Assembly: GCA_016235255.1 (NCBI GenBank)
Contig: JACRLM010000066.1
Span: forward strand, 4,179-68,178
DNA from: Nitrospinota bacterium
GTDB taxonomy: Bacteria; Nitrospinota_A; UBA7883; JACRLM01
DNA: 64,000 nt
Direction: 5' to 3'
The notes under the pieces are model-generated. The model saw only the letters and a program-made list of their open reading frames with translations. It did not search any database and was not told the DNA's origin. Of this stretch, positions 12,695-64,000 are shown one piece after another. Both the position numbers and the translations under genes were made by a program. Position 1 is the first letter of the stretch. Each line of letters starts with the position of its first letter.

Positions 12695-12733
12695 ATTGTG
12701 CGCATTATTGGAAAAACGGCGCCGCCCGGCGGG

Positions 12734-13324: not shown

Positions 13325-13423
13325 TTTACCCTGCCAATTATTTACGTAAACTATATTAATAACACGTTATCACCGCATTGACAAACCCACACGCAACGCG
13401 TGCAAAAGGATGGCGTGGACTTC

Positions 13424-23565: not shown

Positions 23566-23571
23566 CATACT

Positions 23572-26502: not shown

Positions 26503-26767
26503 CCGTTGTTTCCCTGATGATACACAGCTTACCGGGCCCGAAATCCCAGTTTATACGATATGGATGCTGACAGGAGCATAAATTAATAGTAACAAAACGA
26601 AATTTCTTTAGTAATTTCAGCTTGTTGTCAGATTTTAGACCCGTTATAACAAAGTTCTGTTGCGTCAAATTATTTAATGGGTTAGATTATTAAGCTGATT
26701 GGTGATCGTGGGGGGACGCATACTTTACCTTGATGGGGGAAACGTGTCCTCAAACGCGGTTAAAAAG

Positions 26768-29700
26768 ATGATTGTCCAAGCAGTTGAAATGGAAAAAGCC
26801 TTGAAATTTTCCTCGATCACCGAGGTTTTATCATGGCGGGCCTCCCGCAATGGCGATAAAACAGCCTTCACGTTCCTTCATGAAGGCAAAACTCCGGAGC
26901 GTTCCATTACATTCCGGCAGTTGGACGAGCAAGCATGCGCATTGGCCACAACACTTAAAGACCTGGGCGCCGAGGGGGAAAGGGCGTTGCTCATATATCC
27001 CGCCGGGATCGAGTTTGTGGTGGCGTTCATGGGATGCCTGTATGCGGGCGTCATCGCCGTCCCCCTCCCGCCGCCGGACTCGGCAAGATTGAAAAGGAGC
27101 CTTCCAAGGCTCAACCTTGTGGCGGAGGATTCCGGGGCCAAATTCGTCCTTTGCCTGGGAAACATGGCGCAAACGCTGGAATCTTCCCTGGTGGACTACA
27201 AATGGCTTAAAAGCATGCGCCTGATCGCCACTGACGGCCTTGGGATGGCGGGGCAAACCGGATTTAAGGGCGCCGCCGCGCCGGAAGGCATAGCTTATCT
27301 GCAATACACCTCCGGCTCCACCTCCGATCCCAAAGGGGTGATAGTGCGGCATGAAAACATCATGGCCAACTCCATGTGCGTACAACGCATGTGGAGCTAT
27401 TCGGAGGAGAGCGTATCGCTTGTGTGGATGCCCAATTTTCACGACTACGGGCTTGTGGACGGGATTATCCAGCCCATATTCTCCGGCGCTTCGTCATATT
27501 TAATGTCCCCGATGGCATTCCTGAAAAATCCGCTGCGGTGGGTGGAGGCGGTGTCGCGGTTCGGGGTGACAAACAGCGGAGGTCCGAACTTCGCCTTCGA
27601 ATACTGCGCCGCCAAAATCACACCGGAGAAAAAAGCGGGGCTGGACCTTTCACGATGGAAGGTGGCCCATTGCGGCGCCGAACCGATCCGCAAGGTTACT
27701 GTGGACAGTTTTACGAAAGAATTTTCCATATGCGGATTCGACAGCCGATCGTTCTACGCCGGATACGGCTTGGCCGAGGCCACGCTGATGGTCACCACCA
27801 AACGCCGGGGGAGCGAACCGCCGTTTTTTACCGCCTCCGCCGCAAGCCTGGAAAAAGACCTGGCCGTTCCGGCGGATGGAGGGCAAAAGGCCCGTCATAT
27901 CGCCGGATGCGGCGTCCCGGCGGGGGATATGGACGTGGTCATCGCCGATCCAGACAGCCATGCGCGGCTTGAGCCTGGAAAGATCGGCGAGGTGTGGGTG
28001 GCTGGCCAGCCGGTGTCGCCCGGCTACTGGGGGAAAGAAAAGGAGAGCGGCGATACTTTCCGCGCTCAACTTGCCGGGGAATCGGCCGCAAAATACCTTC
28101 GCACCGGCGACCTTGGATTCATGCTCGACGGCGAGTTGTATATCACAGGACGCCGAAAGGACCTGGTGATCATAGGCGGGGTGAACCATTATCCGCAGGA
28201 CATCGAACTGACGGTGGAAAGCTGCCACCCGAACCTCCGCAAGAACGGGTCGGCCGCGTTTTCCGTGGACGTGGAGGGGGAGGAGCGGCTTTGCGTTGTG
28301 GCGGAGGTGGACAGCGCCGCCAAGGAATTTGGCGCGATACTCCGGCAAATCATCTCGGCGGTCTCGGAAAACCACGAGTTGGAAGTCTTTGCGGCGGTCC
28401 TTATCAGGAAGGGGACGTTATTGAAGACCACCAGCGGCAAGGTCCAGCGCGGCGCCTGCCGTAAAGTGTTCCTCGAAGGGGGGCTGGAGGAGGCCGCCGT
28501 AATGCGGAAGAAAGCCATCGGGCACGCGTCCCACCCGGCAGGCGGTGGAACTGGCGCGGCTGGAAAAATTATGGCTAAAGAGCAGGCGGTAAATTCAATA
28601 TCCGTACTGCTCGCCCAAAGGCTTGGCCTGCGGTTGGAGGAAATCGTCCCCGCCGAAACGTTCTCAAGTTTCGGCCTGTCGTCGCGGGAGGCGGTACGTC
28701 TTGCCGGCGAACTTGAAGAGGCCTTCGGAATGGAGCTTGCGCCCACCATTCTCTGGAAATATCCGACGGTGGACTCTCTGGCGGGGCATTTATGCGGGGA
28801 AGCAGACCTGGCGCAGCCTTCATCTTTGGAGCGGCGCAACAAAAATTCAAGCAGCGAGCCCATCGCCATTGTGGGGATTGGCCTTAAGTTCCCGGGGGCG
28901 GACGATCCGGACTCGTTCTGGAGGATGCTTTTGGAGGGGAAGGACGCAATATCGGAAGTTCCCGCCGGAAGGTGGCCCATTGAAGATTATTACGATCCGG
29001 CCCCGGCCACACCCGGGAAGATGAACACCCGATGGGGAGGGTTCATCGACGGGGTGGACATGTTCGACGCTGAATTTTTCGGGATCACCCCCCGCGAGGC
29101 GGAAGCAATGGATCCGCAGCAGCGGCTTGTTCTGGAAACGGCATGGCGGGCGCTGGAGAACGCCGGGATTCCACCGGCGGGGCTTGCCGGATCGGCTGGC
29201 GGAGTGTTCATTGGCGTAAGCGCGGACGATTATTCCAGGCTCCAGTTCAATCAGTCGGCGTCGTCGAGCGCATACGCCGGCACAGGCTCATCGCTAAGCC
29301 TTACGGCCAACCGCCTGTCGTATTATCTGGACCTTAAAGGCCCTTCTCTGGCGGTGGACACGGCTTGCTCGTCATCCCTTATGGCCGTGCATCTTGCGGT
29401 GGGCGCCCTGCGGCGCGGCGAGTGCGATCTGGCGCTGGCCGGAGGGGTGAGCCTGACGCTCACACCGCACGCCACGGTGGCGTTGTCGCAGGCGAAAATG
29501 CTCTCTCCCACGGGGCGATGCAGGACTTTCGGCGCGGATGCGGACGGATACGCGCGCGGCGAAGGATGCGGCGTCGTGGTCATGAAAAGTCTTTCTGATG
29601 CGCTGGAAAGCGGCGACAGGATAATTGCAATTGTCCGCGGCTCGGCGGTGAACCAGGACGGCAGGAGCAACGGGCTGACCGCGCCAAACGGGCTTTCCCA

Positions 29701-32700
29701 GGTGGAAGTGATGCGCCGCGCGCTGTCGGACGCAGGTGTGGAGCCGCGCAGCGTGGGATATGTGGAGGCCCACGGCACCGGCACTCCTCTGGGCGATCCG
29801 ATAGAGATGGAATCGATAAAGACCGCCTTTGGCGGAGCGGATGGGGATGAGGCTCCATGCCATACCAGCTCCGTGAAAACGAACATAGGCCATCTGGAGG
29901 CGGCGGCTGGGGTGGCAGGGCTTATCAAAACGGCGCTGTCTCTGTGGCACGGGAAGATACCACCCCATGCGAATCTGAAAAAAATCAATCCGCTGATAAA
30001 GCTTGAAGGGACGCGGTTTGCCATTCCCGAGAAGGTGGAGACATTCCATTCGCATAACGGCGTCCGGCGGGCGGGGGTGAGTTCTTTCGGATTCGGCGGG
30101 GCGAACGCCCATGTGATACTTGAAAGCCACGATCAGCCGATTGATGCGCCATCAACGCCGGAAAGACCCTTGCACGTCATCGCCATCTCCGCCAAGAACG
30201 GCGCGGTTCTTATGGAACTTGCCGCAAAATATCTGAACCTTTTGGAAAGTGATCCGGCGATCCGGCTTGCCGATCTGGCCTGCGCGGCCAACGCCGGGCG
30301 CTCCCACATGCCGGTGCGGGCGGCGTTTGTGGCCGGGTCCTGCGCCGAACTTGCGGAGAAACTTCGCGTATTTATCAGGGAGGGCGCTCCGGCGAAGAAA
30401 AGCGCGGGCGTGAAAACCGGCGATACGTCCAGGCTCCCGGCCCATGATGAGGATATGTTTGCAAGCAGGGAGAAACTCGAACAACTGGCGGCCGCATACA
30501 GGGACGGCGTCAACGTGGACTGGACGAAGTATTATTCAAGGCGGCGGTGTACTGCCTTTGGCGCCCCTTTATATCCGTTCCAGCGCAAGCGCCATTGGGC
30601 TTTAACCGAACATCATGGAACACAGCCCGGCCGCGCCGCCACGGAGCTTCCGGGGGAGAAGATCGAATTGGCCGATCCTCCCGGCGGCTGTGTCTATCAA
30701 GGCGCGATATCGGCTGCGGCGACTCCCTGGATCGCAGGGCACATAATAAACGGTGAAATGGCGCTTCCCGGCGTAGCGTACATGCTTATGGCCCTGGACG
30801 CGGCTTTCGGAGAAGGGGAATCCGTGGCCGGCGTCGAAATGAACGATATACGGTTTGACAACCTGATCATCGTCAGGGGGGCGGGGCAAAAGGATATTTT
30901 CACCCAATGCACTCCGGATGGGGATGGCCACTCAATCGCTATTTACTCCGCGCCAGATATCAACCACATGAAATGCGGGATTCGCAAATATCCGCGGTCC
31001 GGCCAATCCCGCGGTCTGTTGCCTGTGGATGAAATAAAAGCGAGGCTCGGCGAACCATCAACAGGGGCCCGATTCTATGAGGCATGGGTCGGCCGGGGTT
31101 TCAGCTGGAGCGAAGGTTTTAACAACGTTACAGATTTGTGGACAGGGGAGGGGGAGGCGCTGGCGTTGGTGGAAACGCCATCGGGCTCCGGTCTTGGCGT
31201 ACGCGCCGGAATTCTTGACGCCTGCGGCCATTCTTTGGCCGAGATCGCCGGGGGGATGAACAAGGGAGTCTTCGTCTTCAAATCGGCGGACTCGTTCAGG
31301 ATGCACCTGCCCATCGCCGGGAAGAAGTTTTGGTCCCACGCAACGGGCAATTACAGCGCGGTGGAAAATGCGCTGACCGGGGACATCACCATCGCTTTGG
31401 AGACAGGCGAAGTGGCCGCGGAATTTCGCGGGGTGCGATTGGTGTTCATAAACGCCATGGCGGAAGCCGCGGCCGTACCCGCCGCCAAAGAGGCCGATCC
31501 GATCAATGACGATCTTCTCCAGACCTACGGCGCGGACATGGAAAAGGCGATCCGCGCATGGCTGGCCTCGGAAGCGGGCCGGATATTCATGATCAAGGAA
31601 GACGAAATTGATATAGACACACCGCTGGGGGCGCTTGGGATGGACTCCCTCATGGCGATGGACCTGGCCGACTCGATATCCGCCAGGTTGAAAATCAAAA
31701 TCAGCGCTGTGGAACTGATGGGGGACGATGTGAGCCTTGCCGGGCTTGCAAAGCATCTTGCCGGGCCGCTTCCGGACACTGCGAATGAAGCGGCCGGGCT
31801 TATAATCCCGGAGGCACCCACGGCGGAAAATTTTTCTCCCCTTTCATACGGGCAGCGCGCGCTGTGGTTTGTCAGCAAAATGTCGCCGGACAGCGCGGCG
31901 TACAATGTGGCCTTCGCCGCCGCCATCCGTTCGCAAATCGGCCATGGAGCGTTGCGCGCCGCCCTCGATACGCTGGCGCAAAGGCATCCGGCTTTGCGGA
32001 CGGTGTTCACGATGGCGGGCGGGGAAGTCAAATGCAGGGAATTGGAGGAGGGAAGGATCGAATTCAACGTCACGCAAGCGCTGGGATCCGATGACGCGGC
32101 TGTCCGGGAACAGGTGAACAAAGCTTACGGGCGTCCCTTTGACCTTGAGAACGGCCCCCTGGCGCGGGTGGACATCTTCACCCGCTCGCCCAAAGATCAC
32201 GTCATGCTCGTCACGGTGAGCCATATCATCTGCGATGGATGGTCGCTGTGGCTGCTGATGGACGAGATGGGCAAGCTTTACGGGGCGCAAGTAAAAGGGA
32301 CAACGGCGGACCTGCCTCCGGTGGCCAAAACGTACGGCGATTTCACCTCGTGGCAAAAGGGGATGGTGGACGGGCCGGAGGGGCGCAAGAGCCTTGAATA
32401 CTGGACGAAACGGATTTCCGGGGACATCCCGCCACTGGATCTGCCCGTGGACAGACCAAGGCCGGAGGTGAAAACGGAGAACGGCGCCACTGTCAATTTT
32501 GATATGCCGGGAAACGTTTCGGAAGGGATCAAAAGGCTGGCCAGGGAGGCGAACACCACCCCCTATACAGTGGCGCTCTCCGCCTTTTTCGCGTTTTTAT
32601 ACAGGTACACCAACCAGGAAACATTGCTTGCCGGATCGCCGATGGCCGCGCGCCCTTCCTCCGGGTTTTACGGAGTGGCGGGTGATTTCGTCAATCCGGT

Positions 32701-53471: not shown

Positions 53472-53483
53472 GCGGCGGGAACA

Positions 53484-56400
53484 ATGGCCATAGAGAAGAG
53501 CAACATAAAGAACATTTATCCATTGACCCCCACGCAGGAGGGGATGCTTTTCCATGCGCTCATGGAAACGTCGCCGGAGGCGTATTTCAACCAGATCATA
53601 TATACGCTGCGCGGTGATCTGGACGCCGACGCGTTCGAGAAAAGCTGGAACGAGATAATAAAGCGCCACGACACCCTGCGGACCCTGTTCACATACAGGA
53701 ACACCGACAGGCCCCTGCAGGTGGTGCTGCGGGAACGGCCCTTGCGCGCCTCCATCCACGATCTTATCGGCCTGCCACAGGCGCAAAAGGAGCTTGCGGC
53801 GGAGGAGATACGCCGCGCGGACCTTGCAAAGCCTTTCGACCTGGAACAGGACATCCTGATGCGGCTATATGTGATCCGTCTGGAGGACAATCTGTGGAAG
53901 GTGATATGGAGCCATCATCACATTCTCATGGACGGATGGTCGGTGGGCAATGTGATGAAAGAGCTTATGGCGGTGTACCTTGCCATGAAAAAAGGGACAA
54001 GGCCGGCCCTCGCCCCGCCGCCTCCATACGCTGAATACATAAAGTGGCTCGAAAAGCTGGACAAGTCCGCCTCGGGGGACTACTGGAAGCGTTACCTTGC
54101 CGGTTATGAAAAGCCGGTGACTTTCCCACGCTTGAAACGTCCATCTGGCAAACGGGAGATAAAGGACTTCAGATTCTCGTTTGATGAAACGTTGACCTCC
54201 CAGGTGGAGCGCTTCACCCGGGAGCGCGGCGTCACGCTGGGGGCTGTCACGCAGGGGGCGTGGGGCGCCCTTATGGCAAGGTATAACGGGGTGGACGACG
54301 TGGTGTCCGCTTCCGTCGTCTCCGGAAGGCCGCCGGAACTTGAGGGGGTGGAGTCCTATGTGGGGCTTTTCATAAACGCAATACCTGTCCGCTCCCGGAT
54401 CGGGGCCTCCACATCCTTCGCCGGGTTGACGGAGAGCCTTATGCGGGACGCGGCCGATGGCGCGGCCCACCACTATTATCCGCTGGGTAAAATACAGACG
54501 GCCCATCCTCTCGGGCGCAATCTTCTGGACCATGTGACGGCCCTGGAAAACTATCCTGTCCAGGAGCGGCTAAACGATCCGGCGCTGTATGAAGACCTCG
54601 GGTTTGCCCCAGTTAGCTTTGAATGGACCGAGCGCACCAACTACGACTACGATTTTATGGCCATCCCCGGCAAGCGGCTGGACTTCCATGTGACGTACGA
54701 CTCGAACATGTTCGATGCAGGGCAGATGGAGGCGATGGCGGGGCATCTTGAGAACATCGTCCGTTCGGCCGCCGCCGACCCCCTCGCGCCGCTGAATAAA
54801 ATGGACATCCTTGCCCCGGCAGAGAGAGAACGGATACTGTTCGAGTTTGGCGGGCCCGCCTCCATAAATCCACCGGATGGGACCGTCTTGAACCTTATCG
54901 AAGAGAACGCCCGTAAAACTCCCGATGCGGCAGCGCTGGTGTGCGCCGGACGGCGGCTTACCTATTCGCAATTGAACCAACGCGCCAACCGGATCGCCGG
55001 AAGGCTTATAAAAGCTTACGGTGTGCGCCCCGGGGACATTGTGGGTGTGATGATGGAAAAGAGCGAGCGGGCGGTGGTTGCCATCCTCGCCATCTTAAAG
55101 GCGGGCGCGGCGTACCTGCCTTTGGACCCGGAGCATCCGGAGAAAAGGACAGCCGGCATACTGGCGCAGGCAGGCGCGAAAATGCTTATCACCGAACAGC
55201 GCGTGGCCGAAGGGATGGAGTTTGACGGCATCCTGGACTTCATCATGCCGCAAACCGGGATCGTGACCACCCCCCCCCGCTCCAGCATACAGGAGCTGGA
55301 CTCGCTCCCCTACGCGGACAGGTCGGTGATCAATTACGAGAAATACCACAACTTCATCGGCCAGTCCGTGGCAAAGCGCGCTATGGCCATCCAGTCCACC
55401 CGGGGATGCCCATACCTTTGCGCCTACTGCCACAAAGTGTGGCCGAAAAAGCACAAGCGCCGCTCCGCCGAAAACCTTTTCGGCGAGGTGAAAAAACTGC
55501 ATGACTGCGGTGTGCGCAGGTTCGTGTTCATAGACGATATTTTCAACATGGACCGCGCCAACAGCGCAAGGTTCTTCGAGATGGTGATCCGCGCCCGGCT
55601 GGACATACAGATATTCTTCAGCAACGGGCTGCGGGGGGACACGCTGACCCCGGACTACATAGACCTTATGGTGGAGGCTGGGACGAAGAGCATGGCCCTG
55701 GCGCTGGAGACCGCGTCGCCACGCCTGCAGAAACTGATGAAGAAAAACCTGCGCCTCGAGCGGTTCAAGGAAAACCTGGACTATATCGCCGCCCGCCACC
55801 CGCAGGTGATCCTGGAGCTTTTCACCATGCACGGCTTCCCCACGGAGACGGAGGAAGAGGCCATGATGACGCTGGATTTCATCCGCGGGATAAAGTGGAT
55901 ACATTTTCCCTATGTGTTCATCCTCCGCATTTTCCCGGACACGGACATGGCAAGGCTGGCGATGGACAACGGCGTGAGCGCGGAAGCGATAAAAGCTTCC
56001 GCCACGCTGGGCTACCACGAGCTGCCGTCAATACTGCCATTCCCGGCCAGCTTTTCAAAACGATATCAGATGACGTTCCTGAACGAGTACTTCCTCTCGC
56101 GCGAGCGGCTGATTTCCGTGCTGCCGCGCCAGATGGCGCTTTTGAGCGAGGACGAGCTTGTCCAGAAATACAACAGCTATCTGCCAAAAGACATCCGGTC
56201 GTTCGGCGATTTTCTGGAGCTTGCGGGGCTTTCAATGGAAGACCTGCGGGGGGCGGCCTTCGCGGAGGACGGCGCAAAGCAGTCCGCCGGGCTCAACAGC
56301 AGGCTCGCCGCCGCGTTCCCCTCGCCTAACCCTGAGAAAGGGGCGCTCCGCGTCCTGCTGCTCGACCTTTCGCAGAATTTTACGAAGGACAAAACCCTCC

Positions 56401-59400
56401 TGTACGATGTGATGGAGCCGCCGCTTGGGCTTGCGCTGCTGGCCACAAGGCTGAAAAACGAGTTCGGCCCCAAAGTGGAGGTGAAGATAGCCAAGGCCCG
56501 CGCCGATTTCGACAGTTTTGAAGAATTGCGCGCGCTGATGGACGACTTCCGGCCGGACCTGACCGGGGTGCGCTCATTGACCTATTACAGGAGCTTTTTC
56601 CACAAGACGGTGTTCCTTGTCCGTCAATGGGGATATGAAGGCGCCATCATCGCCGGCGGCCCCCATGCGACCAGCGCAACGGCGGACACATTGCGAAATC
56701 CCGGCGTGGCCTTCGCCGCCCTGGGGGAAGGGGAGGAGACGCTGGCGGAGCTTGTGCGTGAAACGATCAATAACAAAGGGCGGCTTCCCGGCAGGGACGT
56801 ATTGGGCCGCGTGGCAGGCGCCGCCATGGCGCGTGATGCGCGGAACGGCGCTGAATATCCTCGAGCCGCGCTTTTTGAAAAGCTGGAAAGGGACTCAGCC
56901 GCGCTCTCCGCCGAAGACATAAACGAGGCGAAAAGCGACGGCCTTGCGTATGTGATCTTTACCTCCGGCTCCACTGGGGAGCCCAAGGGGGTGATGGTGG
57001 AGCACAGGCAACTATGCAACCTGGTCACATGGATCGGCAGTGACATGTATTCAACGCTTCCCAAGCCTGTCAACGAAGCCATGCTTCCGTCGCTTGTGTT
57101 CGACGTGTCGGCCCAGCAGATTTTCGGAGCGCTCTCCACCGGGAACACTCTGCATGTAATAGAGGACGACGTGCGGCTCGACCCTCAAATGTTGCTCGAT
57201 TATCTTCGCGAGAACGAAATCCATGTCGTCAACTTCACTCCGACGCTGTTGCGGCGCGCTCTATCGTCCGCCGGATCGCGGAATCCGGGCTGGGCGCTAA
57301 GGCACGTGATCGTGGGGGCGGAGCCTTTGTGGATGGAGGACGTGGAATCGTTTTACTCCACGCCGGCCAACCGGGGGATCGTCATGCGCAACATGTACGG
57401 CCCAACCGAATGCTGCGTGGACGCCACCAGTTTCGTATTCGGCTTTTCAGCGCCGTTAGAGTGGAATAGCGTGCCCATAGGCAGGCCCATAGGTAACGCC
57501 CGGGCGCTGATTCTCGACGGCGCCGGGCTGCCGGTCCCCGCCGGGGTGGAAGGGGAGCTTTATGTGTCCGGCGCGGGGGTGGCCAGGGGATATGTTAAAG
57601 ATGACGGCGGCGGAAGGTTCATGGCCGATCCGTTCGCGCCGGGCTTGCGCATGTACCGTACCGGCGACATGGCGCGATGGCTGCCGGGCGGGAACATAGA
57701 ATTTCTGGGCCGGATGGACAACCAGGTGAAGGTTCGCGGCCACAGGATAGAACTGGGCGAGATAGAGAACAGGCTGCGATCCCATCCAAGGGTGTCCGGG
57801 GCGGCGGCGATCTTGCGCAAGACGGACGAGGGCGAAAGCGAGCTTGTGGCGTATGTGGCCTCCGGCGACGGGCTGGACGCCGAAGGGCTCCGGGAATATA
57901 TGGGCGGCCACCTGCCCGATTACATGATCCCATCCCATATAGCGCTGGTGGACAAAATCCCGGTGACACCGGGGGGGAAAGTGGACCTGCGCGCGTTGGA
58001 TTCCACAGCGGCGCAAGCGGCCCCCACGAATGGCGAGGATAGCGCCGCCCCCCGGTCGGAGATGGAAAAGACGGTGGCGGCCATATTCGCCAATACCCTC
58101 GGCCAGCCTTCCATGGGGATACATGACAATTATTTTTCGATGGGGGGCGATTCGATTAAGGCCATTCAGATACTGTCGCGGCTGCGGCAGAAAAACCTGA
58201 ACCTCAAGCTTGCCGACCTTTTTTCGAATCCCACCATAGCCGGAGTGGCGCCTTATGTGGTGAGGCTGGACCGCACCGCGCAACAAGGGCTCATCACCGG
58301 GCCGGTCCCGCTCACCCCGATCCAGCGCGCCTTCTTTGAAAGGGACGCCGCGGCGCCTGACCATTTCAACCATTCCATAGCGCTGCGGGCAAAAAAGCCG
58401 CTGGATCCGGCGATCCTGGAAAAAGCCCTTTCGGCCGTGTGGGAGTGGCATGACGCGCTGCGCATGAGGTACAGGCGCGATGGGGAAGAGGTCGTCCAGG
58501 AATGCGCTGGGCTTGAGAACAGGCTGGATTTCTCATTCAAAGACCTGTCCACGTCCCCGGACGGCGACACGGAGGCCATGCGCGCGATGGGCGAGGCGCA
58601 ACAGCGGTTCGACCTGGCCACGGGGCCGCTGGCCAGGTTCATCCTGTTCCGGCTTGCCGGCGGCGAGACGCTTTTCATCACCGTCCACCACCTTATCATT
58701 GACATGGTCTCGTGGAGATTGTTGCTTGAGGACATTTCCACGGCCTACGAGCAAGCGGCGCGGGGCGGCCAGGCGCGCCTGCCGGCCAAGACCGATTCGT
58801 TCCGACAATGGGGCGAGGCCCTTTTGGAATTCGCAAAAAGCCCAAAACTTCTTGCCGAACTTGAAACATGGGCACAGATCGAAAACAGCGAATACGCCGA
58901 GCCCGTTCCGGACTTCCCGGGAGGCGGCAACACCTTCGCCAGCGAACATATTGAAAGTTTCACCCTGCAGGCGCAGATGGGGGAGAAACTGACCGGGGAG
59001 GCCAACAGGGCATATAACACCACGCCCGACGAGCTTGTGCTGGCAGCCCTTGGCCAGGCTTTGGAAAAATGGGGGATGAAAGGCGCCACGTTGATCGATC
59101 TGGAGGGGCACGGCAGGGAGGAGATCTCGCCGGGGCTGGACATAAGCCGTACCGTCGGCTGGTTCACCTCCACGCACCCTTTCACGCTGGGCCTTGACGG
59201 CGCTCCGATGGACGCGCGCATAAAGAGAGTGAAGGAAGCCAGGCGGAAGGTTCCACACAAGGGAATAGGCCACGGGATATTGGGCAGGATCACACCCCGC
59301 GAATTGCTGAGGGGAGCCAGATTCACCCAAAAGCCGGGAATAAGTTTCAATTACCTGGGCTTTATTGGCGGATCGGCCATGGGGCCGCTGTTCGAGCCGT

Positions 59401-59684
59401 CGCCGCTTGCGTCCGGCCGGGATGTAAGCCCGCTCAATCAAAGGGTGGCGGGTCTGGACATAAGCTGCGCGGCGTGGACGGGGGGCTTCACTTTGTCCAT
59501 CCGCTACAGCGGCGAGCAATACCGAAGTGATAATATCAAGCGCCTGCTCGGCCAGATAGAAGAAGGAATCGCCGCGGCCCTTTCCCTCTGCCTTAAAATG
59601 GAGGCCACGGAGCCCACCCCGTCGGACATGACGTACAAGGGGCTTAGCCTTCAGGAGTTCGAGGAGATATTCGCCGATGATTAG
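53484..59684 (+). CDS. NRPS module: C - A (interrupted between A2 and A3 by a ~570-aa radical SAM + B12-binding insertion) - T - E
   Basis: - N-terminus: COM-acceptor-like NIYPLTPTQEGMLFH.
- C: HHHILMDGWS.
- A1: LTYSQLNQRA. A2: LKAGAAYLPLDP at about 55.10 kb.
- Insertion: radical-SAM core STRGCPYLCAYCH (CxxxCxxC) at 55407..55430.
- B12-binding domain: PPLGLALLATRL...GAIIAGGPHATS...ALGEGEETLAEL at about 56.4 to 56.8 kb.
- A3: YVIFTSGSTGEPKG only at about 56.95 kb. A5: NMYGPTECC. A7: YRTGD. A8: GRMDNQVKVRGHRIE.
- T: FSMGGDSIKAIQI.
- E: HHLIIDMVSW.
- C-terminal COM-like tail. Confidence 0.92.
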   Translation: MAIEKSNIKNIYPLTPTQEGMLFHALMETSPEAYFNQIIYTLRGDLDADAFEKSWNEIIKRHDTLRTLFTYRNTDRPLQVVLRERPLRASIHDLIGLPQAQKELAAEEIRRADLAKPFDLEQDILMRLYVIRLEDNLWKVIWSHHHILMDGWSVGNVMKELMAVYLAMKKGTRPALAPPPPYAEYIKWLEKLDKSASGDYWKRYLAGYEKPVTFPRLKRPSGKREIKDFRFSFDETLTSQVERFTRERGVTLGAVTQGAWGALMARYNGVDDVVSASVVSGRPPELEGVESYVGLFINAIPVRSRIGASTSFAGLTESLMRDAADGAAHHYYPLGKIQTAHPLGRNLLDHVTALENYPVQERLNDPALYEDLGFAPVSFEWTERTNYDYDFMAIPGKRLDFHVTYDSNMFDAGQMEAMAGHLENIVRSAAADPLAPLNKMDILAPAERERILFEFGGPASINPPDGTVLNLIEENARKTPDAAALVCAGRRLTYSQLNQRANRIAGRLIKAYGVRPGDIVGVMMEKSERAVVAILAILKAGAAYLPLDPEHPEKRTAGILAQAGAKMLITEQRVAEGMEFDGILDFIMPQTGIVTTPPRSSIQELDSLPYADRSVINYEKYHNFIGQSVAKRAMAIQSTRGCPYLCAYCHKVWPKKHKRRSAENLFGEVKKLHDCGVRRFVFIDDIFNMDRANSARFFEMVIRARLDIQIFFSNGLRGDTLTPDYIDLMVEAGTKSMALALETASPRLQKLMKKNLRLERFKENLDYIAARHPQVILELFTMHGFPTETEEEAMMTLDFIRGIKWIHFPYVFILRIFPDTDMARLAMDNGVSAEAIKASATLGYHELPSILPFPASFSKRYQMTFLNEYFLSRERLISVLPRQMALLSEDELVQKYNSYLPKDIRSFGDFLELAGLSMEDLRGAAFAEDGAKQSAGLNSRLAAAFPSPNPEKGALRVLLLDLSQNFTKDKTLLYDVMEPPLGLALLATRLKNEFGPKVEVKIAKARADFDSFEELRALMDDFRPDLTGVRSLTYYRSFFHKTVFLVRQWGYEGAIIAGGPHATSATADTLRNPGVAFAALGEGEETLAELVRETINNKGRLPGRDVLGRVAGAAMARDARNGAEYPRAALFEKLERDSAALSAEDINEAKSDGLAYVIFTSGSTGEPKGVMVEHRQLCNLVTWIGSDMYSTLPKPVNEAMLPSLVFDVSAQQIFGALSTGNTLHVIEDDVRLDPQMLLDYLRENEIHVVNFTPTLLRRALSSAGSRNPGWALRHVIVGAEPLWMEDVESFYSTPANRGIVMRNMYGPTECCVDATSFVFGFSAPLEWNSVPIGRPIGNARALILDGAGLPVPAGVEGELYVSGAGVARGYVKDDGGGRFMADPFAPGLRMYRTGDMARWLPGGNIEFLGRMDNQVKVRGHRIELGEIENRLRSHPRVSGAAAILRKTDEGESELVAYVASGDGLDAEGLREYMGGHLPDYMIPSHIALVDKIPVTPGGKVDLRALDSTAAQAAPTNGEDSAAPRSEMEKTVAAIFANTLGQPSMGIHDNYFSMGGDSIKAIQILSRLRQKNLNLKLADLFSNPTIAGVAPYVVRLDRTAQQGLITGPVPLTPIQRAFFERDAAAPDHFNHSIALRAKKPLDPAILEKALSAVWEWHDALRMRYRRDGEEVVQECAGLENRLDFSFKDLSTSPDGDTEAMRAMGEAQQRFDLATGPLARFILFRLAGGETLFITVHHLIIDMVSWRLLLEDISTAYEQAARGGQARLPAKTDSFRQWGEALLEFAKSPKLLAELETWAQIENSEYAEPVPDFPGGGNTFASEHIESFTLQAQMGEKLTGEANRAYNTTPDELVLAALGQALEKWGMKGATLIDLEGHGREEISPGLDISRTVGWFTSTHPFTLGLDGAPMDARIKRVKEARRKVPHKGIGHGILGRITPRELLRGARFTQKPGISFNYLGFIGGSAMGPLFEPSPLASGRDVSPLNQRVAGLDISCAAWTGGFTLSIRYSGEQYRSDNIKRLLGQIEEGIAAALSLCLKMEATEPTPSDMTYKGLSLQEFEEIFADD
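55230..56930 (+). other. Radical SAM (CxxxCxxC) + cobalamin-binding domain insertion inside the adenylation domain
   Basis: The 4Fe-4S CxxxCxxC motif is at 55407..55430. It is followed by a partial TIM-barrel-like region (GVRRFVFIDDIF...SMALALETASP) and then a Rossmann-like B12-binding region (IIAGGPHAT...GEGEETL). Confidence 0.8.
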
Positions 59685-62600
59685 CAAGGAAAACCTCAAG
59701 GACATGTATCCGCTCTCCCCCATGCAGGAGGGGATGCTTTATCACGCCGTGGCGGACAGGGATTCGCGCGCGTATTTCGAGCAGATATCGTTCCGGATAA
59801 GCGGAGAGCTGGACATCGGAAAATTCATGGAGGCGTGGACGGAGATATTCCGCCGCCACGATATCCTGCGCACGGCGTTCCTGCTGGAAAAGGCCAGCAG
59901 GCCGCTCCAGATAGTGCTCAAGGAGCGCAAACCCGGCTTTAGCGTGGATGACATAAGCGCCGAGCCCGAGGAGGAAAAGGAAAGGACCGTCATCCGGTTC
60001 CGGGAAGAAGATAAACAGCGCGGATTTGATCTGGCGCGCGATCCGCTGATGAGGTTTCGCGTAATAGTCCTGGGCGGGGGCCGGTTCGAGGTCATATGGA
60101 GCTTAAGCCACATCGTCATGGACGGATGGGGCATATCGCTGGCGCATACGGAATTTTTTGAGATATACACCGCTTTGAAGGAGGGACGCGCCCATACACT
60201 TCCTCCGGCGCCTCCTTATTCGCGCTTTATCCAGTGGCTGGAGGAGCGGGACAAAAGAGCATCGTTGGACTATTGGGAGAAATACCTGGCGGACTATCAG
60301 ACGGCCGTATCAATCCCGAAACTTCCGGGCGCGCCCAACGGGAAAGAGTTTGCGGTGGCGATACACTCTTCCACCCTCGGAGCGGAGCGGGTGCGCAAGG
60401 TCGAGCAGCTTGCCGCGGCGCATGCCGTCACGCCGAACATGGTTTTCCAGGCGGCGTTATCGGTGGCGCTTTGCATGTACAACGGGGTGGACGACGCCGT
60501 TTTCGGATCAGTGGTGTCCGGCAGGCCGCCGGAGCTTCCCGGCGCGGAAAAGACCCTCGGACTTTTCATAAACACCATCCCGGTGCGGGGGAGTGTGGAC
60601 TGGGACAGCGGGTTGGACGTGCTTTTAAAGCGCCTGATGAAAAGCGGCGTGGAGAGCGCCCCGCATCATCACAGTTTCCTGGGGGAGGTGATCGGCCGCT
60701 CCACCCCCGGGCGGGACCTGATCAGTGCCCTGCTTATTTTTGAGAACTATCCGTTGGACGCCTTGACCATGCTCCCGTCCACCGGATTTGATATCATCCG
60801 GACCAAACGCTTTGAAATGACCACGTCGGATTTTAACGTTGTGGTAATTCCGGGCGGTGACATGCGGGTGGATTATCACTACAACCAGAACGTCCACAGC
60901 GCGGCCCAGGTGGAGCGGACGGCGTCGCATCTGGTGAAAATCCTCGATTTTGCGATAGAAGGGGCTTCTCGGCCTCTTTCCATGCTCAAGGTCATGGACG
61001 ATGAGGAGATGAACGCCGTGACTATCGGATTCCAGGGGAAGTCCGCCGCGATCCCGGAAGGCAAGACAGTGGACGCCATGTTCACGGACTCGGCTTTAAA
61101 GCACGGGGACAGGATCGCGGCGATGGATGGCGCTGGCGAGGTGACATATCAAAGGCTCGACCGCATGGCCAACGGCGTGGCGCGGGCGCTCATTGAAAAA
61201 GCTTCGGTGGGCAAGGGGGACGTGGTGGCGGCGGTGGTGCACAGGTCGCGCTGGCTTGCCGCTTCGTTCATGGGCATATTGAAGGCCGGCGGGTTGTACC
61301 TTCCTTGCGATCCTGATCTGCCCGCCGAAAGGATACGATTCATGATGCGCGATTCAGCCTGCAAGGCTGTGATCGTGGATGACGCAGGCGTCGCCGCGCA
61401 ACTGGCCGATGGCGGCGTTCCGGTCATAATGACGGACGACATAAAAGAAAGCCCGGCCCAATCCGCCGCCGCCGCCGATCCGGAAGAGCCGGCCTATCTT
61501 ATATACACATCCGGTTCCACTGGTGTCCCCAAAGGTGCGCTCATCAGCCACCGGGCCGCCATCAACCTGAGCATGTGGCACAACCGGTTCTACAAAGTGG
61601 ACGAAAACAGCAGGGGCACGTTGCACGCCTCACCTTCGTTCGACGCCTCCGTATGGGAGACGTTGCCGTACCTGTTCGCAGGCGCCAGCCTTTGCGCCGT
61701 GGAAGGGGAGACGCGCACCGATATGGCTAAACTGGCCTCATTTTATCAGGACAAACGTATCACGCACAGCTTTCTGCCCCCAGCCCTGCTCACGCAGTTT
61801 CTGGAGGAGAACGGCGGCTCCCTCGCGGGCAAAATAACGATAGTCACCGGAGGCGAGACGCTAAAGCGCGCGGGCGACGGTTCCGTCCTGGTGGCGAACA
61901 ATTATGGGCCGACCGAATGCGCCGTGGCGGCCACCGCCGTTTGCCTGGACGAGCCGCGCCTTCGCGAATGCATCCCAATCGGCCGCCCGATAGACAACGT
62001 GAAAGTTTATATTCTGGACAGCCGCATGCGACCCGTTCCCATCGGCGCCATCGGCGAGATTTATATAGGCGGCGCCGGAGTGGGGAATGGATACGTAAAC
62101 CGGCCCGAGCTCACGGCGGCGGCGTTTGCGCCAGGCCCTTTTGAAAACGGCGCGAAACTTTACAGGACGGGGGACATGGCCCGGTGGCGCGACGACGGGC
62201 TTATTGATTTTACCGGCAGGCGGGACGGCCAGGTGAAAATACGCGGTAACAGGGTTGAGACAGGCGAGATTGAAAAGCTTCTTGAGGGGCACGCGACGGT
62301 CACCTCGGCGGCGGTGGTGGCCAGGGACGATGGCGCGGGGTCGAAGGAACTGGCGGCGTTCTATGTTTCCGGCAAAGAGGAGGATGTGGCGGACCTGCGG
62401 GCGCATCTTGCGTCCAGAGTCCCGGAATACATGATTCCTTCCATGTTCATCAGGATGGAAAAGCTGCCGCTGGCATCCAGTGGAAAAGTGGACCGGAGCG
62501 CCCTGGAGGCCGCCGCCATTGCCGCCGCGCGTCCTCAAAAACAGGGAGGGGCCCCCAGAAATCCCGCGGAAACACGGATGCTGGAAATCTGGGCGGGGGT

Positions 62601-62856
62601 TATGGGTGTGAAGGGGGCTGGAATATTTGACAATTTCTTCGACCTGGGTGGCCACTCCATAAAAGCGGCGCAACTGGCCTCGCGCATTCGCAAGGAGTTC
62701 GGCGTGGAGATGCCCCCCAATTCCATATTCGAAAATCCGACGGTGGAGAGTATCTGCCAGGCCATGGAAACGGTGAAACAGGCGGCTCCCGGCAATGGTG
62801 GACAGATGATTGGCAAAGCCCCGCGCGGCCGCAAGCCGGCCGTGATGGACAGTTGA
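59677..62856 (+). CDS. NRPS module C - A - T (C domain follows an E-domain protein; COM-acceptor-like N-terminus)
   Basis: - N-terminus: MISKENLKDMYPLSPMQEGMLYH, compare the TycB COM-acceptor.
- C: SHIVMDGWG.
- A: YTSGSTGVPKG, NNYGPTECAV, YRTGD, GRRDGQVKIRGNRVE.
- T: FFDLGGHSIKAAQL. Confidence 0.93.
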   Translation: MISKENLKDMYPLSPMQEGMLYHAVADRDSRAYFEQISFRISGELDIGKFMEAWTEIFRRHDILRTAFLLEKASRPLQIVLKERKPGFSVDDISAEPEEEKERTVIRFREEDKQRGFDLARDPLMRFRVIVLGGGRFEVIWSLSHIVMDGWGISLAHTEFFEIYTALKEGRAHTLPPAPPYSRFIQWLEERDKRASLDYWEKYLADYQTAVSIPKLPGAPNGKEFAVAIHSSTLGAERVRKVEQLAAAHAVTPNMVFQAALSVALCMYNGVDDAVFGSVVSGRPPELPGAEKTLGLFINTIPVRGSVDWDSGLDVLLKRLMKSGVESAPHHHSFLGEVIGRSTPGRDLISALLIFENYPLDALTMLPSTGFDIIRTKRFEMTTSDFNVVVIPGGDMRVDYHYNQNVHSAAQVERTASHLVKILDFAIEGASRPLSMLKVMDDEEMNAVTIGFQGKSAAIPEGKTVDAMFTDSALKHGDRIAAMDGAGEVTYQRLDRMANGVARALIEKASVGKGDVVAAVVHRSRWLAASFMGILKAGGLYLPCDPDLPAERIRFMMRDSACKAVIVDDAGVAAQLADGGVPVIMTDDIKESPAQSAAAADPEEPAYLIYTSGSTGVPKGALISHRAAINLSMWHNRFYKVDENSRGTLHASPSFDASVWETLPYLFAGASLCAVEGETRTDMAKLASFYQDKRITHSFLPPALLTQFLEENGGSLAGKITIVTGGETLKRAGDGSVLVANNYGPTECAVAATAVCLDEPRLRECIPIGRPIDNVKVYILDSRMRPVPIGAIGEIYIGGAGVGNGYVNRPELTAAAFAPGPFENGAKLYRTGDMARWRDDGLIDFTGRRDGQVKIRGNRVETGEIEKLLEGHATVTSAAVVARDDGAGSKELAAFYVSGKEEDVADLRAHLASRVPEYMIPSMFIRMEKLPLASSGKVDRSALEAAAIAAARPQKQGGAPRNPAETRMLEIWAGVMGVKGAGIFDNFFDLGGHSIKAAQLASRIRKEFGVEMPPNSIFENPTVESICQAMETVKQAAPGNGGQMIGKAPRGRKPAVMDS

Positions 62857-62906
62857 CCGGCGGCGGTGAAAGTTATCAAAAAAAACAATCGAAGCACAGG
62901 ATGACG

Positions 62907-64000
62907 ATGAGCGAAGAGACGGTTGAAACATTCGTGTTTCCCATGTCCTATTCCCAAAGGAGGCTGTGGTTCCTCGAACAGATGGAGCCGGGCTCGGCGG
63001 CCTACCATATTCCGGCCGCCCTTTTAATGGAAGGAAAGCTGGACACAGCAGCGTTGGAAAAGAGTCTCAAGGCGATCGTGGAGCGCCATGAACCTTTGCG
63101 CACCACTTTCAAAATGGTGGAAGGGGAACCGTGCCAGGTGATCGGCTCCAAAGCGGACGTTTCCATTTCAATCATGGACGCGGCGCAGTGGCCTGAGGGG
63201 GAGAGGATGGACATTATACGCCGCCTGGTCGCCGAAAAGTCCGCCCGTCCGTTCGACCTTGCCGCCGGGCCGCTTCTGCGGGTCACCCTGATAAAGGCAG
63301 GCGAAAACAAAAGTGTGCTGGCCCTGGTTATGCATCATATCATTTCCGACGGGTGGTCCATGGGGGTGTTGATAAAGGAGTTTTCGGAGAATTATTCCGC
63401 CTTCGTCTCCGGTCAGGAGCCGCAAACGCCGGAGCTTGCCATCCAGTACGCCGATTACTCCGAGTGGCAGCGTGGAATGCTTGAGGGGGATGCATGGGCC
63501 GGCATGCTCGAATACTGGAAAAACACGCTCCACGGCGCGCCGCCGTTTCTGGACTTGCCCGCGGACAGGCAACGCTCTCCACTCAAGACATACAACGGCG
63601 CCATGGAGAGGTTTAACATCGGAGCCGGGACTTTCAGCAAGCTCGACACCCTTTGCCGGGGGAATTCGGCCTCGCTATTCATGTGTTTGTTCGCGGCCTT
63701 TTCCGCTCTTGTGTCCAGGTACACGCAAAAGGAGGACATGGTCCTGGCCACACTTCTGGCCAACAGGAACAGGGAAGAGCTTGAGCCGATAATCGGTTTT
63801 TTCGTGAACACGCTTCCACTGCGGCTGGACATGTCCGGCGATCCATCTTTCCAGCAATTGCTGGAGAAGGCCCGCCGCGTGTGCATGGACGCGTTCGCCC
63901 ATCAGGACGCCCCGTTTGACAAGCTTGTCGAATCGCTCAATCCCGAGCGCAATCTTGGCCATACGCCCATAGTCAACGTGATGATGACACTGCAGAATAC
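62907..64000 (+). CDS. NRPS condensation domain, 5' part of a further module (runs off the window end)
   Basis: SD AGGA lies 6 nt upstream of the ATG at 62907. MSYSQRRLWFLEQMEPGSAAYHIPAALLMEG and HHIISDGWS are C-domain C1 and C3 motifs. No stop before nt 64000. Absent from the ORF track because the frame is open-ended. Confidence 0.9.
   Translation, partial: MSEETVETFVFPMSYSQRRLWFLEQMEPGSAAYHIPAALLMEGKLDTAALEKSLKAIVERHEPLRTTFKMVEGEPCQVIGSKADVSISIMDAAQWPEGERMDIIRRLVAEKSARPFDLAAGPLLRVTLIKAGENKSVLALVMHHIISDGWSMGVLIKEFSENYSAFVSGQEPQTPELAIQYADYSEWQRGMLEGDAWAGMLEYWKNTLHGAPPFLDLPADRQRSPLKTYNGAMERFNIGAGTFSKLDTLCRGNSASLFMCLFAAFSALVSRYTQKEDMVLATLLANRNREELEPIIGFFVNTLPLRLDMSGDPSFQQLLEKARRVCMDAFAHQDAPFDKLVESLNPERNLGHTPIVNVMMTLQN

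What the first reader, a model, noticed from the sequence alone, without database searches (positions are those of the whole stretch)
26699..64000. More than 37 kb colinear, translationally coupled lipo-polyketide/peptide assembly line, incomplete in the window
Eight consecutive same-strand giant genes are joined mostly by overlapping stop/start codons: ATGA at 35089, 39612 and 48711, and GTGA-type 8-nt overlaps at 43060 and 59677. The predicted module order is fatty acyl (FAAL), then PKS, aa1, PKS, aa2, PKS(+Me), aa3(D), aa4(D, radical-modified), aa5, aa6 and onward. No thioesterase or reductase release domain appears before nt 64000, so the cluster continues downstream. The combination of FAAL start, alternating PKS/NRPS, two E domains and the rSAM-A domain does not match any pathway I can name. 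It is a strong candidate for a new lipopeptide-polyketide.
Basis: partly seen in the sequence, partly recalled or inferred. Interest (0 to 1): 0.8.

Follow-up and report, generated by a model that had tools for sequence, protein, structure and literature searches.

The report
Orphan lipopeptide assembly line, radical-SAM module
An uncultivated groundwater Nitrospinota bacterium carries an intact, uncharacterised fatty-acid/polyketide/peptide assembly line, and one amino-acid-activating domain is split by a vitamin-B12-type radical SAM enzyme, a built-in tailoring domain that is common in metagenomes but that I could not find described.

Summary
From 26699 to the window end there are seven intact ORFs and one cut ORF on the + strand. 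They are joined by 4-nt overlaps (35089, 39612, 48711), 8-nt overlaps (43060, 59677) or short gaps.

The domain order is:
- FAAL-ACP-KS-DH-ACP-C-A-T
- KS-AT-KR-ACP
- dock-C-A-T
- KS-AT-cMT-KR-ACP
- dock-C-A-T-E
- C-A(rSAM-B12)-T-E
- C-A-T
- C...

Corrections: 39612 and 48711 read GTGA, not ATGA. The 8-nt overlaps start with ATG.

The source is a Nitrospinota MAG. An identical Logan contig adds 9 kb downstream. It carries C-A(PP-loop insert)-T, then C-A-T-C, then a PhpK-family B12-rSAM gene. There is still no release domain.

The most notable feature is the 543-aa rSAM→B12 insert, whose domain order is permuted relative to canonical class B enzymes. It sits between A-domain motifs a2 and a3. 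It belongs to a large family: 910 representatives at E≤1e-30, and all of the 150 best listed are longer than the insert, mostly megasynthases of over 1,000 aa. Two reviews of interrupted A domains do not mention it.

Verdict: a real, orphan hybrid cluster. It is a new variant of a known kind. The product and the radical chemistry are inferred, not shown.

The parts
25870..26502 (-). Sfp-type 4'-phosphopantetheinyl transferase, divergent from g1
   Evidence: Pfam ACPS E=1e-13 and AASDHPPT_N E=4e-11
26699..35092 (+). g1, 2797 aa. Domains (nt): FAAL 26795-28492; ACP 28604-28792; KS 28856-29977; DH 30653-31456; ACP 31535-31717; C 31826-33184; A 33257-34696; T about 34781-34993. The PKS module has no AT and no KR. 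The true start may be ATG 26768 or 26789.
   Evidence: Pfam. NCBIfam FAAL models score best for aa 33-598. KS triad CSS/HGTGT/NIGH is intact. DH motifs HxxxGxxxxP and DxxxH are present. Coordinates.
35089..39615 (+). g2, 1508 aa: KS-AT(malonyl, GHSVG/HAFH)-KR-ACP. ATGA overlap with g1.
   Evidence: Exact match to NCBI protein MBI5815645.1.
39612..43067 (+). g3, 1151 aa: TubC_N docking-C-A-T. GTGA overlap with g2. A-domain code DILQLGMIWK (Gly-like).
43060..48714 (+). g4, 1884 aa: KS-AT(malonyl)-[KR interrupted by cMT]-ACP. 8-nt overlap (ATGGCTGA) with g3.
48711..53471 (+). g5, 1586 aa: TubC_N docking-C-A-T(GGDSI)-E. GTGA overlap with g4.
53484..59684 (+). g6, 2066 aa: C(DCL-like)-A(interrupted)-T(GGDSI)-E
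   Evidence: Exact match to NCBI protein MBI5815649.1.
55221..56933 (+). The insert in the g6 A domain, between motif a2 (LKAGAAYLPLDP, aa 538) and motif a3 (FTSGSTGEPK, aa 1159). It contains a radical SAM core (CPYLCAYC at aa 642; nt 55392-55883) followed by a B12-binding Rossmann domain (nt 56418-56756).
59677..62856 (+). g7, 1059 aa: C(DCL-like)-A-T. 8-nt overlap (ATGATTAG) with g6. A-domain code DAWFVGNVAK (Leu-like).
   Evidence: Exact match to NCBI protein MBI5815650.1.
62901..64000 (+). g8, N-terminal 366 aa (C domain), cut by the window end. In L001 it continues as C-A(PP-loop/WbuX-like insert between a8 and a9)-T, 1413 aa.
21907..25649 (+). ABC transporter (fused TMD-ATPase), SPFH/Band 7 protein and periplasmic binding protein, immediately upstream. 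Possibly export or accessory genes; membership in the cluster is not shown.
   Evidence: Pfam; adjacency only

Best explanation
This is an intact, colinear, probably co-translated hybrid type I PKS/NRPS assembly line in the chromosome of an uncultivated Nitrospinota bacterium. It makes an as yet unknown N-acylated peptide-polyketide.

Proposed sequence of events:
1. The FAAL domain adenylates a free fatty acid and loads it on ACP1.
2. An AT-less KS-DH-ACP module processes it. How the extender unit and the reduction are supplied is unknown.
3. The acyl chain is condensed with aa1.
4. Two malonyl-specific PKS modules, KS-AT-KR and KS-AT-cMT-KR, each extend an amino acid by two carbons. This gives gamma-amino-beta-hydroxy (statine-like) units, the second one alpha-methylated, with a Gly-like residue between them.
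5. Then follow a D-residue (module with E), a second D-residue whose module carries the rSAM-B12 insert, a Leu-like residue, an Asx-like residue whose A domain carries a PP-loop amidotransferase-like insert, a Pro residue and at least one more condensation.
6. The embedded rSAM-B12 domain most likely works in cis on the aminoacyl or peptidyl thioester held on the module's own T domain. It would do radical C-H functionalisation, most probably cobalamin-dependent C-methylation of an unactivated carbon. This parallels the way SAM-dependent M domains embedded in A domains act after loading.

Shown: gene integrity, domain order, catalytic motifs, the insertion site, and that the insert belongs to an NRPS-dedicated family.

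Inferred: substrates, product structure, timing and chemistry of the radical step, and how the chain is released.
For: - Domain order and E-values.
- Junctions.
- Intact KS triads, DH, AT (GHSVG/HAFH) and cMT motifs.
- All A-domain core motifs are present on both sides of the g6 insert.
- E-domain motifs, GGDSI T domains, and separate clustering of the post-E C domains.
- TubC_N docking domains sit exactly on the NRPS proteins that follow PKS proteins.
- An Sfp-type PPTase is adjacent.
- The sequence is reproduced in independent assemblies: Logan contigs from SRR12113394 and SRR12113395 are identical over 14,324 nt, and there is an NCBI MAG contig of 109.6 kb.
- A 70-77% identical g5-g6-g7 segment with the same 8-nt overlap occurs in a JGI metagenome.
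- In the insert family alignment the three Cys of CxxxCxxC, the GGP motif and the EGE motif are invariant. The model is confident: pLDDT 89.7, pTM 0.89.
- The rSAM core resembles AprD4, MgmA, TsrM, CysS and TokK. The Rossmann part resembles cobalamin-binding proteins.
- NCBIfam class B profiles align only from their profile position about 150 onward.
- Family size and context: 910 representatives at E<=1e-30; all 150 best listed exceed the 571-aa query (725-7929 aa), about 145 of them over 1,000 aa.
- The insertion site is strictly conserved: a2 to Cys motif 101-111 aa, Cys motif to a3 512-555 aa, in 118 of 146 representatives.
- Standalone copies lie inside NRPS clusters.
- Precedent for B12-rSAM C-methylation of a nonribosomal peptide: DscE, PMC12858407.
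Against: - No release domain (TE, R or terminal cyclising C) is seen in the 46 kb available, so completeness is unproven.
- The first PKS module lacks AT and KR, so its chemistry is unexplained.
- No MbtH-like gene was found by motif scan.
- Three of seven A-domain codes (g1, g5, g6) could not be assigned. All code readings rest on a GrsA reference fragment and code tables recalled from memory.
- The top structural neighbour of the insert, AprD4, is a dehydratase that does not use cobalamin, so methylation is not the only option.
- There are no expression, metabolite or biochemical data. The source is a MAG.
Confidence: 0.8

Rival explanations
1. The embedded rSAM-B12 domain is active but is not a methyltransferase. 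It would do other radical chemistry on the tethered residue, such as dehydration or elimination, C-C or C-X cross-linking, rearrangement or hydroxylation-like chemistry.
For: - The best NCBIfam hit is BchE, a cyclase.
- Among 120 embedded copies the commonest A-domain code is Thr-like, DFWNIGMVHK (23 of 120). A beta-hydroxy amino acid is a plausible substrate for elimination chemistry.
Against: - All these similarities are far below family cut-offs. Methylase families (PhpK, ApyD, KedN5, MgmA) score about the same.
- The B12-domain signatures GGP and EGE are invariant across the family.
- The A-domain codes are very diverse: Thr, Leu, Ile, Val, Glu, Gln, Asx, Lys, Pro. This fits a generic backbone-proximal C-methylation, as in PoyC and DscE, better than side-chain-specific chemistry.
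Confidence: 0.25
2. The cluster is a known or near-known pathway that simply could not be recognised here, for example a relative of a characterised FAAL-initiated lipopeptide or statine-type protease inhibitor.
For: - FAAL-ACP-KS starts and NRPS-then-PKS(KR) statine-type extensions are well known (own knowledge).
- No KnownClusterBlast comparison could be run.
Against: - Ten literature searches found no paper linking a radical SAM enzyme to an A domain and no characterised Nitrospinota NRPS/PKS product. None of them queried the cluster's overall architecture.
- The closest relative found is an unannotated metagenome contig at 70-77% identity.
- The two interrupted A-domain types are absent from the reviews of such domains.
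Confidence: 0.07
3. The locus is decaying or non-functional: an orphan remnant without release machinery, with dead inserts, or an assembly chimera.
For: - No TE or R domain was seen.
- The first PKS module lacks AT and KR.
- Five of eight C domains have SHxxxDG instead of HHxxxDG.
- The source is a MAG.
Against: - About 46 kb of uninterrupted ORFs with conserved catalytic motifs.
- Identical sequence in three assemblies.
- Synteny and the overlapping start are conserved in a 70-77% identical relative.
- The catalytic second His of the C domains is kept.
- In a related locus (L012; 53% and 64% identity to g9 and to the standalone rSAM) NRPS genes continue after the rSAM gene. The missing release domain is therefore most simply beyond the sequence seen.
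Confidence: 0.07

Closest known systems
FAAL-initiated hybrid PKS/NRPS lipopeptide synthetases (e.g. mycosubtilin/iturin MycA; cyanobacterial puwainaphycin and microginin type). Comparison from own knowledge.
   Same: A fatty acyl-AMP ligase and ACP at the head of the line, followed directly by a KS and then NRPS modules. Colinear operon.
   Different: Here the first PKS module is KS-DH-ACP, without AT, KR or aminotransferase. Two further PKS modules are interleaved between amino acids. The host is Nitrospinota. No sequence-level comparison with those clusters was possible.
Interrupted adenylation domains with SAM-dependent M domains, e.g. TioN (a2-a3) and KtzH, TioS, PchF (a8-a9). Sources: PMC11355689, PMC8341866.
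   Same: A complete auxiliary catalytic domain is inserted between conserved A-domain motifs at the known sites: a2-a3 in g6 and a8-a9 in g8. Both A halves stay intact.
   Different: The inserted domains are a 543-aa Fe-S/cobalamin-type radical SAM enzyme and a PP-loop amidotransferase-like domain, not class I methyltransferases, KR or Ox domains. Neither review mentions 'radical' or 'cobalamin', and the 2020 survey does not mention 'amidotransferase' either.
Class B (cobalamin-dependent) radical SAM C-methyltransferases acting on peptides or carrier-bound substrates: DscE (discodermin, PMC12858407), PoyC, CysS, MgmA, TokK
   Different: The domain order is permuted (rSAM first, B12 last). The domain is fused inside an A domain. 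It scores below every curated NCBIfam cut-off (best 91 bits against cut-offs of 251 bits or more). Its activity is untested.
PhpK-family rSAM (TIGR04479), standalone and NRPS-associated
   Same: The downstream gene after g9 (L001 22226 onward) matches TIGR04479 over profile positions 2-322 at E=2e-114, with the canonical B12-then-rSAM order. Homologues at 51-64% identity are likewise sandwiched between NRPS genes. One hit is from Candidatus Entotheonella serta.
   Different: Only 318 of 566 aa were available. The substrate is unknown. Whether it is an orthologue of DscE was not tested.
WbuX/PseA-type N-acetyl sugar amidotransferases (TIGR03573); PP-loop enzymes QueC and LarE
   Same: The g8 insert aligns end to end with the WbuX profile (E=1e-24). 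It has the SGGKDS PP-loop and CxxC...CxxC motifs.
   Different: It scores 87.5 bits against a cut-off of 203. It is embedded between a8 and a9 of an Asx-like A domain. Its chemistry (amidine, thioamide, nitrile or amide formation) is unknown.

Membership tests
Modular type I PKS/NRPS hybrid assembly line | KS with Cys-His-His triad | tested here: met
   g1, g2 and g4 all have xACSxS, HGTGT and NIGH motifs
Modular type I PKS/NRPS hybrid assembly line | An AT in every PKS module (cis-AT) | tested here: not met
   g2 and g4 have GHSVG/HAFH ATs. The g1 module has only about 90 aa between the KS linker and the DH, and no AT.
Modular type I PKS/NRPS hybrid assembly line | C, A and T core motifs in each NRPS module | tested here: met
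   Pfam hits and motifs a3-a10, (H/S)HxxxDG and GG(H/D)S
Modular type I PKS/NRPS hybrid assembly line | Chain-release domain (TE, R or terminal C) | tested here: inconclusive
   None found up to window-equivalent position 72856. g9 ends in an extra C-type domain. Sequence beyond that could not be fetched.
Modular type I PKS/NRPS hybrid assembly line | A phosphopantetheinyl transferase is available | tested here: met
   Sfp-type PPTase at 25870-26502
FAAL loading module | The adenylating domain resembles FAALs more than acyl-CoA ligases and is followed by an ACP | tested here: met
   For aa 33-598 the best NCBIfam models are FAAL (PRK05850 497 bits; FadD32, FadD21 and FadD28 types), though below whole-protein cut-offs. 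ACP at aa 636-698.
FAAL loading module | FAAL-specific insertion that blocks CoA use | not tested
   No structural or alignment test of the insertion was done
Interrupted adenylation domain | A foreign catalytic domain lies between two conserved A motifs, with both A halves intact | tested here: met
   g6: a2 at 538 and a3 at 1159 (normal spacing 77-78 aa). g8: a8 at 864 and a9 at 1271 (normal spacing 68-69 aa).
Interrupted adenylation domain | The insert is one of the described types (M, KR, Ox) | tested here: not met
   The inserts are rSAM+B12 and PP-loop/WbuX-like. The reviews lack these types.
Class B cobalamin-dependent radical SAM enzymes | CxxxCxxC cluster motif in a radical SAM core | tested here: met
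   CPYLCAYC at aa 642. The three Cys are invariant in 67 sequences. PF04055 E=6e-19.
Class B cobalamin-dependent radical SAM enzymes | Rossmann-type B12-binding domain | tested here: met
Class B cobalamin-dependent radical SAM enzymes | B12 domain N-terminal to the radical SAM core | tested here: not met
   The order is rSAM (insert aa 58-221) then B12 (aa 400-512). The same holds in standalone homologues. Class B profiles align only from profile position about 150.
Class B cobalamin-dependent radical SAM enzymes | Methyl transfer to an unactivated carbon | not testable with these tools
   Needs biochemistry
PhpK-family rSAM (TIGR04479), downstream standalone gene | Score above the curated cut-off (600 bits) | tested here: inconclusive
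   382.9 bits on the 318 of 566 aa available, covering profile positions 2-322
WbuX N-acetyl sugar amidotransferase (TIGR03573), g8 insert | Score above the curated cut-off (203 bits) | tested here: not met
   87.5 bits, E=1e-24, aligned over the full length

The most novel reading that the evidence does not exclude
The insert in g6 may represent an undescribed class of in-cis NRPS tailoring domain. It is a circularly permuted, cobalamin-dependent radical SAM enzyme fixed at the a2-a3 site of A domains. It would methylate, or otherwise functionalise by radical chemistry, unactivated carbons of carrier-bound residues of many kinds.

This would be the assembly-line counterpart of the RiPP enzymes PoyC and PoyB. 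It could be a route to beta-methyl and tert-butyl amino acids, whose NRPS origin is open; tert-leucine in hemiasterlin and plocabulin is named as unsolved in PMC12858407.

The same cluster would carry a second undescribed in-cis domain, a WbuX-like PP-loop amidotransferase at a8-a9 of an Asx module. That domain could turn a carboxamide or carboxylate into an amidine, thioamide or nitrile.
Probability: 0.45. Interest if true: 0.8.

Novelty: new variant of a known kind. Interest (0 to 1): 0.62.

Why it matters
As a gene cluster this is one more orphan hybrid PKS/NRPS, though from Nitrospinota, a phylum for which I found no characterised natural product in one search of the open-access library.

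Its wider value lies in the module C-A(rSAM-B12)-T-E. It gives a compact, intact and independently re-assembled example of a domain family that is abundant in metagenomes: 910 representatives at 50% identity with E≤1e-30, mostly inside megasynthases. That family is absent from the reviews of interrupted A domains.

If the domain methylates carrier-bound residues, three things follow:
- It would explain how assembly lines install C-methyl groups on unactivated carbons without separate enzymes.
- It would improve structure prediction for hundreds of metagenomic NRPS clusters.
- It would offer a portable part for engineering.

The predicted double statine-type backbone suggests a protease-inhibitor-like product.

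Tried and rejected
1. Walking further downstream.
- The look-up of encoding contigs gives at most 10 kb past the last complete window gene.
- The genome-contig scan with the downstream rSAM found only homologues at 51-54% identity, so the source MAG is not among the GTDB representatives.
- The search for homologous proteins did not return the MAG's own protein, so it could not be used for a further look-up.
- The metagenome-contig scan gave only relatives at 52-60% identity.
- The release end therefore remains unseen.

2. Sample lookup. A literature search for SRR12113394 found nothing.

3. The AFDB50 fold library was not available.

4. Idea that the 'standalone' rSAM→B12 proteins are gene-calling fragments of interrupted A domains. 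Rejected: they are complete 540-600-aa ORFs in finished genomes, for example [Clostridium] polysaccharolyticum, and they sit inside NRPS clusters.

5. Idea that the rSAM insert replaces an epimerase. Rejected for this module, because g6 has its own E domain with all E motifs and is followed by a DCL-like C domain.

6. Horizontal-transfer signal. GC content of the cluster (0.59-0.62) matches the flanking rpoBC region (0.59-0.63), so there is no compositional anomaly.

7. KR stereochemical typing was attempted by eye. The LDD/W motifs are not recognisable, so it was left undetermined.


Full report
**1. Observation**

The + strand from 26699 to the window end holds seven complete ORFs of 1059-2797 aa and an eighth that starts at ATG 62901 and runs off the end. 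None has an internal stop.

I read the junctions directly:
- g1/g2: ATGA at 35089.
- g2/g3: GTGA at 39612.
- g3/g4: ATGGCTGA at 43060, an 8-nt overlap.
- g4/g5: GTGA at 48711.
- g5/g6: 12-nt gap.
- g6/g7: ATGATTAG at 59677, an 8-nt overlap.
- g7/g8: 44-nt gap.

The starts are credible for three reasons:
- Domains begin within a few residues of them.
- SD-like purine runs precede them.
- The NCBI protein records for g2, g6 and g7 are identical to these ORFs.

Only the g1 start (TTG 26699, or ATG 26768/26789) is uncertain.

**2. Domain content**

| Gene | Domains |
|---|---|
| g1 | FAAL-ACP-KS-DH-ACP-C-A-T |
| g2 | KS-AT-KR-ACP |
| g3 | TubC_N dock-C-A-T |
| g4 | KS-AT-cMT-KR-ACP |
| g5 | dock-C-A-T-E |
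| g6 | C-A(rSAM+B12)-T-E |
| g7 | C-A-T |
| g8 | C... |

No TE or R domain is present. Further detail:
- The KS triads are intact.
- Both ATs carry GHSVG and HAFH, the malonyl signature by the established rule.
- The g1 DH has HxxxGxxxxP and DxxxH, but its module has no AT and no KR.
- In g4 the cMT sits inside the KR.
- The second 'Condensation' hits of g5 and g6 have E-domain motifs (HHLxxD, EGHGR, FNYLG). The T domains in front of them have GGDSI.
- The C domains of g6 and g7, which follow the E domains, are 38% identical to each other but only 21-28% identical to the other C domains. This fits DCL types.
- TubC_N docking domains sit on exactly the two NRPS proteins that follow PKS proteins. 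That supports colinear protein order.

**3. Surroundings and source**

Upstream lie rpoB, rpoC, a CLC channel, LPS genes, DsbD, glycosyltransferases, an ABC transporter, an SPFH protein, a binding protein and a divergent Sfp-type PPTase at 25870-26502. GC content is uniform. The locus is therefore chromosomal.

Exact-sequence look-up assigns the proteins to a 'Nitrospinae/Nitrospinota bacterium' MAG, accessions MBI5815625 to MBI5815650, on a contig of 109,608 bp.

**4. Downstream**

A Logan contig from SRR12113394 is identical to the window over 14,324 nt and extends about 9 kb further. It adds:
- g8, 1413 aa: C-A-T. Its A domain is interrupted between a8 and a9 by about 338 aa.
- g9, 1578 aa: C-A-T-C. 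The last domain is C-type, not E.
- The first 318 aa of a standalone B12-rSAM gene with the canonical domain order. It matches the PhpK family TIGR04479 at E=2e-114.

There is still no release domain. In a related contig, L012, an NRPS gene follows the rSAM gene (L012 is 53% identical to g9 and 64% to the rSAM). The line probably continues here too. All attempts to see further failed.

A JGI metagenome contig, L011, carries g5-g6-g7 orthologues at 70-77% identity with the same 8-nt overlap. The cluster therefore exists in at least one other population.

**5. The rSAM insert**

*Position.* In g6, motif a2 (aa 538) and motif a3 (aa 1159) are 621 aa apart, against 77-78 aa in g3 and g8. All other A motifs are present.

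*Content.* The insert has a radical SAM core with CPYLCAYC, followed, not preceded, by a B12-binding domain.

*Relatives.*
- The word-indexed search found about 2,500 relatives. The best are about 55% identical. They occur as standalone proteins of about 550 aa with the same rSAM→B12 order, or inside AMP-binding/Condensation proteins of Aminicenantes, Acidobacteriota, Deferrimicrobium and Deltaproteobacteria MAGs.
- The standalone copies lie inside NRPS clusters.
- The exhaustive search of 1.84 billion representatives gave 910 hits at E≤1e-30. All 150 best listed (725-7929 aa) are longer than the 571-aa query, and about 145 of them exceed 1,000 aa.
- In 118 of 146 of these the insertion site is the same to within a few residues: a2 to Cys motif 101-111 aa, Cys motif to a3 512-555 aa.
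- The specificity codes of those A domains are diverse, with a Thr-like code the commonest.

*Structure and conservation.*
- In a 67-sequence alignment the three cluster cysteines, a GGP motif and an EGE motif in the B12 domain are invariant.
- AlphaFold gives a confident model: pLDDT 89.7, pTM 0.89.
- NCBIfam class B models align only from their position about 150 onward, and all score far below their cut-offs.

I conclude that this is a cobalamin-type radical SAM domain with permuted order, dedicated to NRPS.

**6. The g8 insert**

It carries CxxC...CxxC and an SGGKDS PP-loop. It aligns over its full length with the WbuX N-acetyl sugar amidotransferase model (E=1e-24, below the cut-off) and weakly with QueC, LarE-like and NAD-synthase-type proteins. 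Homologues are again found fused to A_C/T fragments in many phyla, and also as standalone proteins of about 330 aa.

**7. Predicted chemistry (inference)**

I derived specificity codes by aligning to a GrsA fragment recalled from memory. The fragment reproduces the known code DAWTIAAICK. The readings of the codes are also from memory.

| Gene | Code | Reading |
|---|---|---|
| g1 | DSALIAEVWK | unassigned |
| g3 | DILQLGMIWK | Gly |
| g5 | DAKDDGAVDK | Glu-like? |
| g6 | DVQNIGMVDK | unassigned |
| g7 | DAWFVGNVAK | Leu-like |
| g8 | DLTKVGEVGK | Asn/Asp |
| g9 | DVQFIAHVVK | Pro |

The two NRPS-then-PKS(KR) pairs predict two gamma-amino-beta-hydroxy acid units, the second alpha-methylated.

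By analogy with embedded M domains, which act after loading (PMC11355689), and with DscE, PoyC and CysS, the rSAM insert most likely C-methylates the T-bound residue 4 before epimerisation.

**8. Literature**

- Searches combining radical SAM with adenylation or interrupted domains found nothing relevant.
- The 2020 survey and the 2024 review of interrupted A domains contain neither 'radical' nor 'cobalamin'.
- A 2025 paper calls even a standalone rSAM methyltransferase next to an NRPS 'an unusual enzyme combination'. It shows that DscE converts Val to tert-Leu on discodermin (PMC12858407).
- Closed-access literature was not searched.

**9. Verdict**

As a cluster it is an orphan member of a known kind. 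Its two interrupted A domains make it a new variant. Interest 0.62.

Noticed in passing
L001 15892-16986 (g8 aa 890-1254; g8 starts at window 62901): A second non-canonical interrupted A domain. A PP-loop domain of about 338 aa (CxxC...CxxC, SGGKDS) lies between a8 and a9 of an Asx-like A domain. It aligns over its full length with WbuX N-acetyl sugar amidotransferase (E=1e-24, below the cut-off). Homologues are fused to NRPS fragments in several phyla.
   Followed up: partly
L005 3191-13495 (JGI 3300063041): Two standalone rSAM→B12 proteins and the NRPS protein in front of them all end in the same tail, QFN(D/V)DLE(N/D)E. This suggests the free enzymes use an NRPS-type docking tail to join the assembly line.
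   Followed up: no
window 28856-31717 (g1 aa 720-1673): The first PKS module is KS-DH-ACP with an intact KS triad and intact DH motifs, but with no AT and no KR. How it gets its extender unit and a beta-hydroxy substrate is unexplained.
   Followed up: partly
window 46435-48183 (g4 aa 1126-1708): The C-methyltransferase lies inside the KR. The KR Rossmann motif GGLGAIG is at aa 1133, and the rest of the KR resumes only at aa 1571.
   Followed up: no
window, C domains of g1, g3 and g7; L001, both C domains of g9: Five of eight C domains carry SHxxxDG (SHxxxDA in the first C domain of g9) instead of the canonical HHxxxDG. The catalytic second His is kept.
   Followed up: no
L007-L009 (Terasakiella), L012, L014, L015: Close homologues (51-64% identity) of the downstream PhpK-family B12-rSAM are also sandwiched between NRPS genes. 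One database hit is from Candidatus Entotheonella serta.
   Followed up: partly
P0245-P0390 (representative megasynthases): A domains carrying the rSAM insert have very diverse specificity codes. Thr-like DFWNIGMVHK is the commonest (23 of 120). Some proteins carry two such inserts.
   Followed up: partly
window 12248-13381 and 18834-20750: Two + strand ORFs (377 aa and 638 aa) among envelope-biogenesis genes have no Pfam hit.
   Followed up: no
window 112-3429: rpoB is cut by the window start: only 1105 aa are listed. rpoC follows at 3509-7675. This shows the cluster sits in the core chromosome.
   Followed up: no
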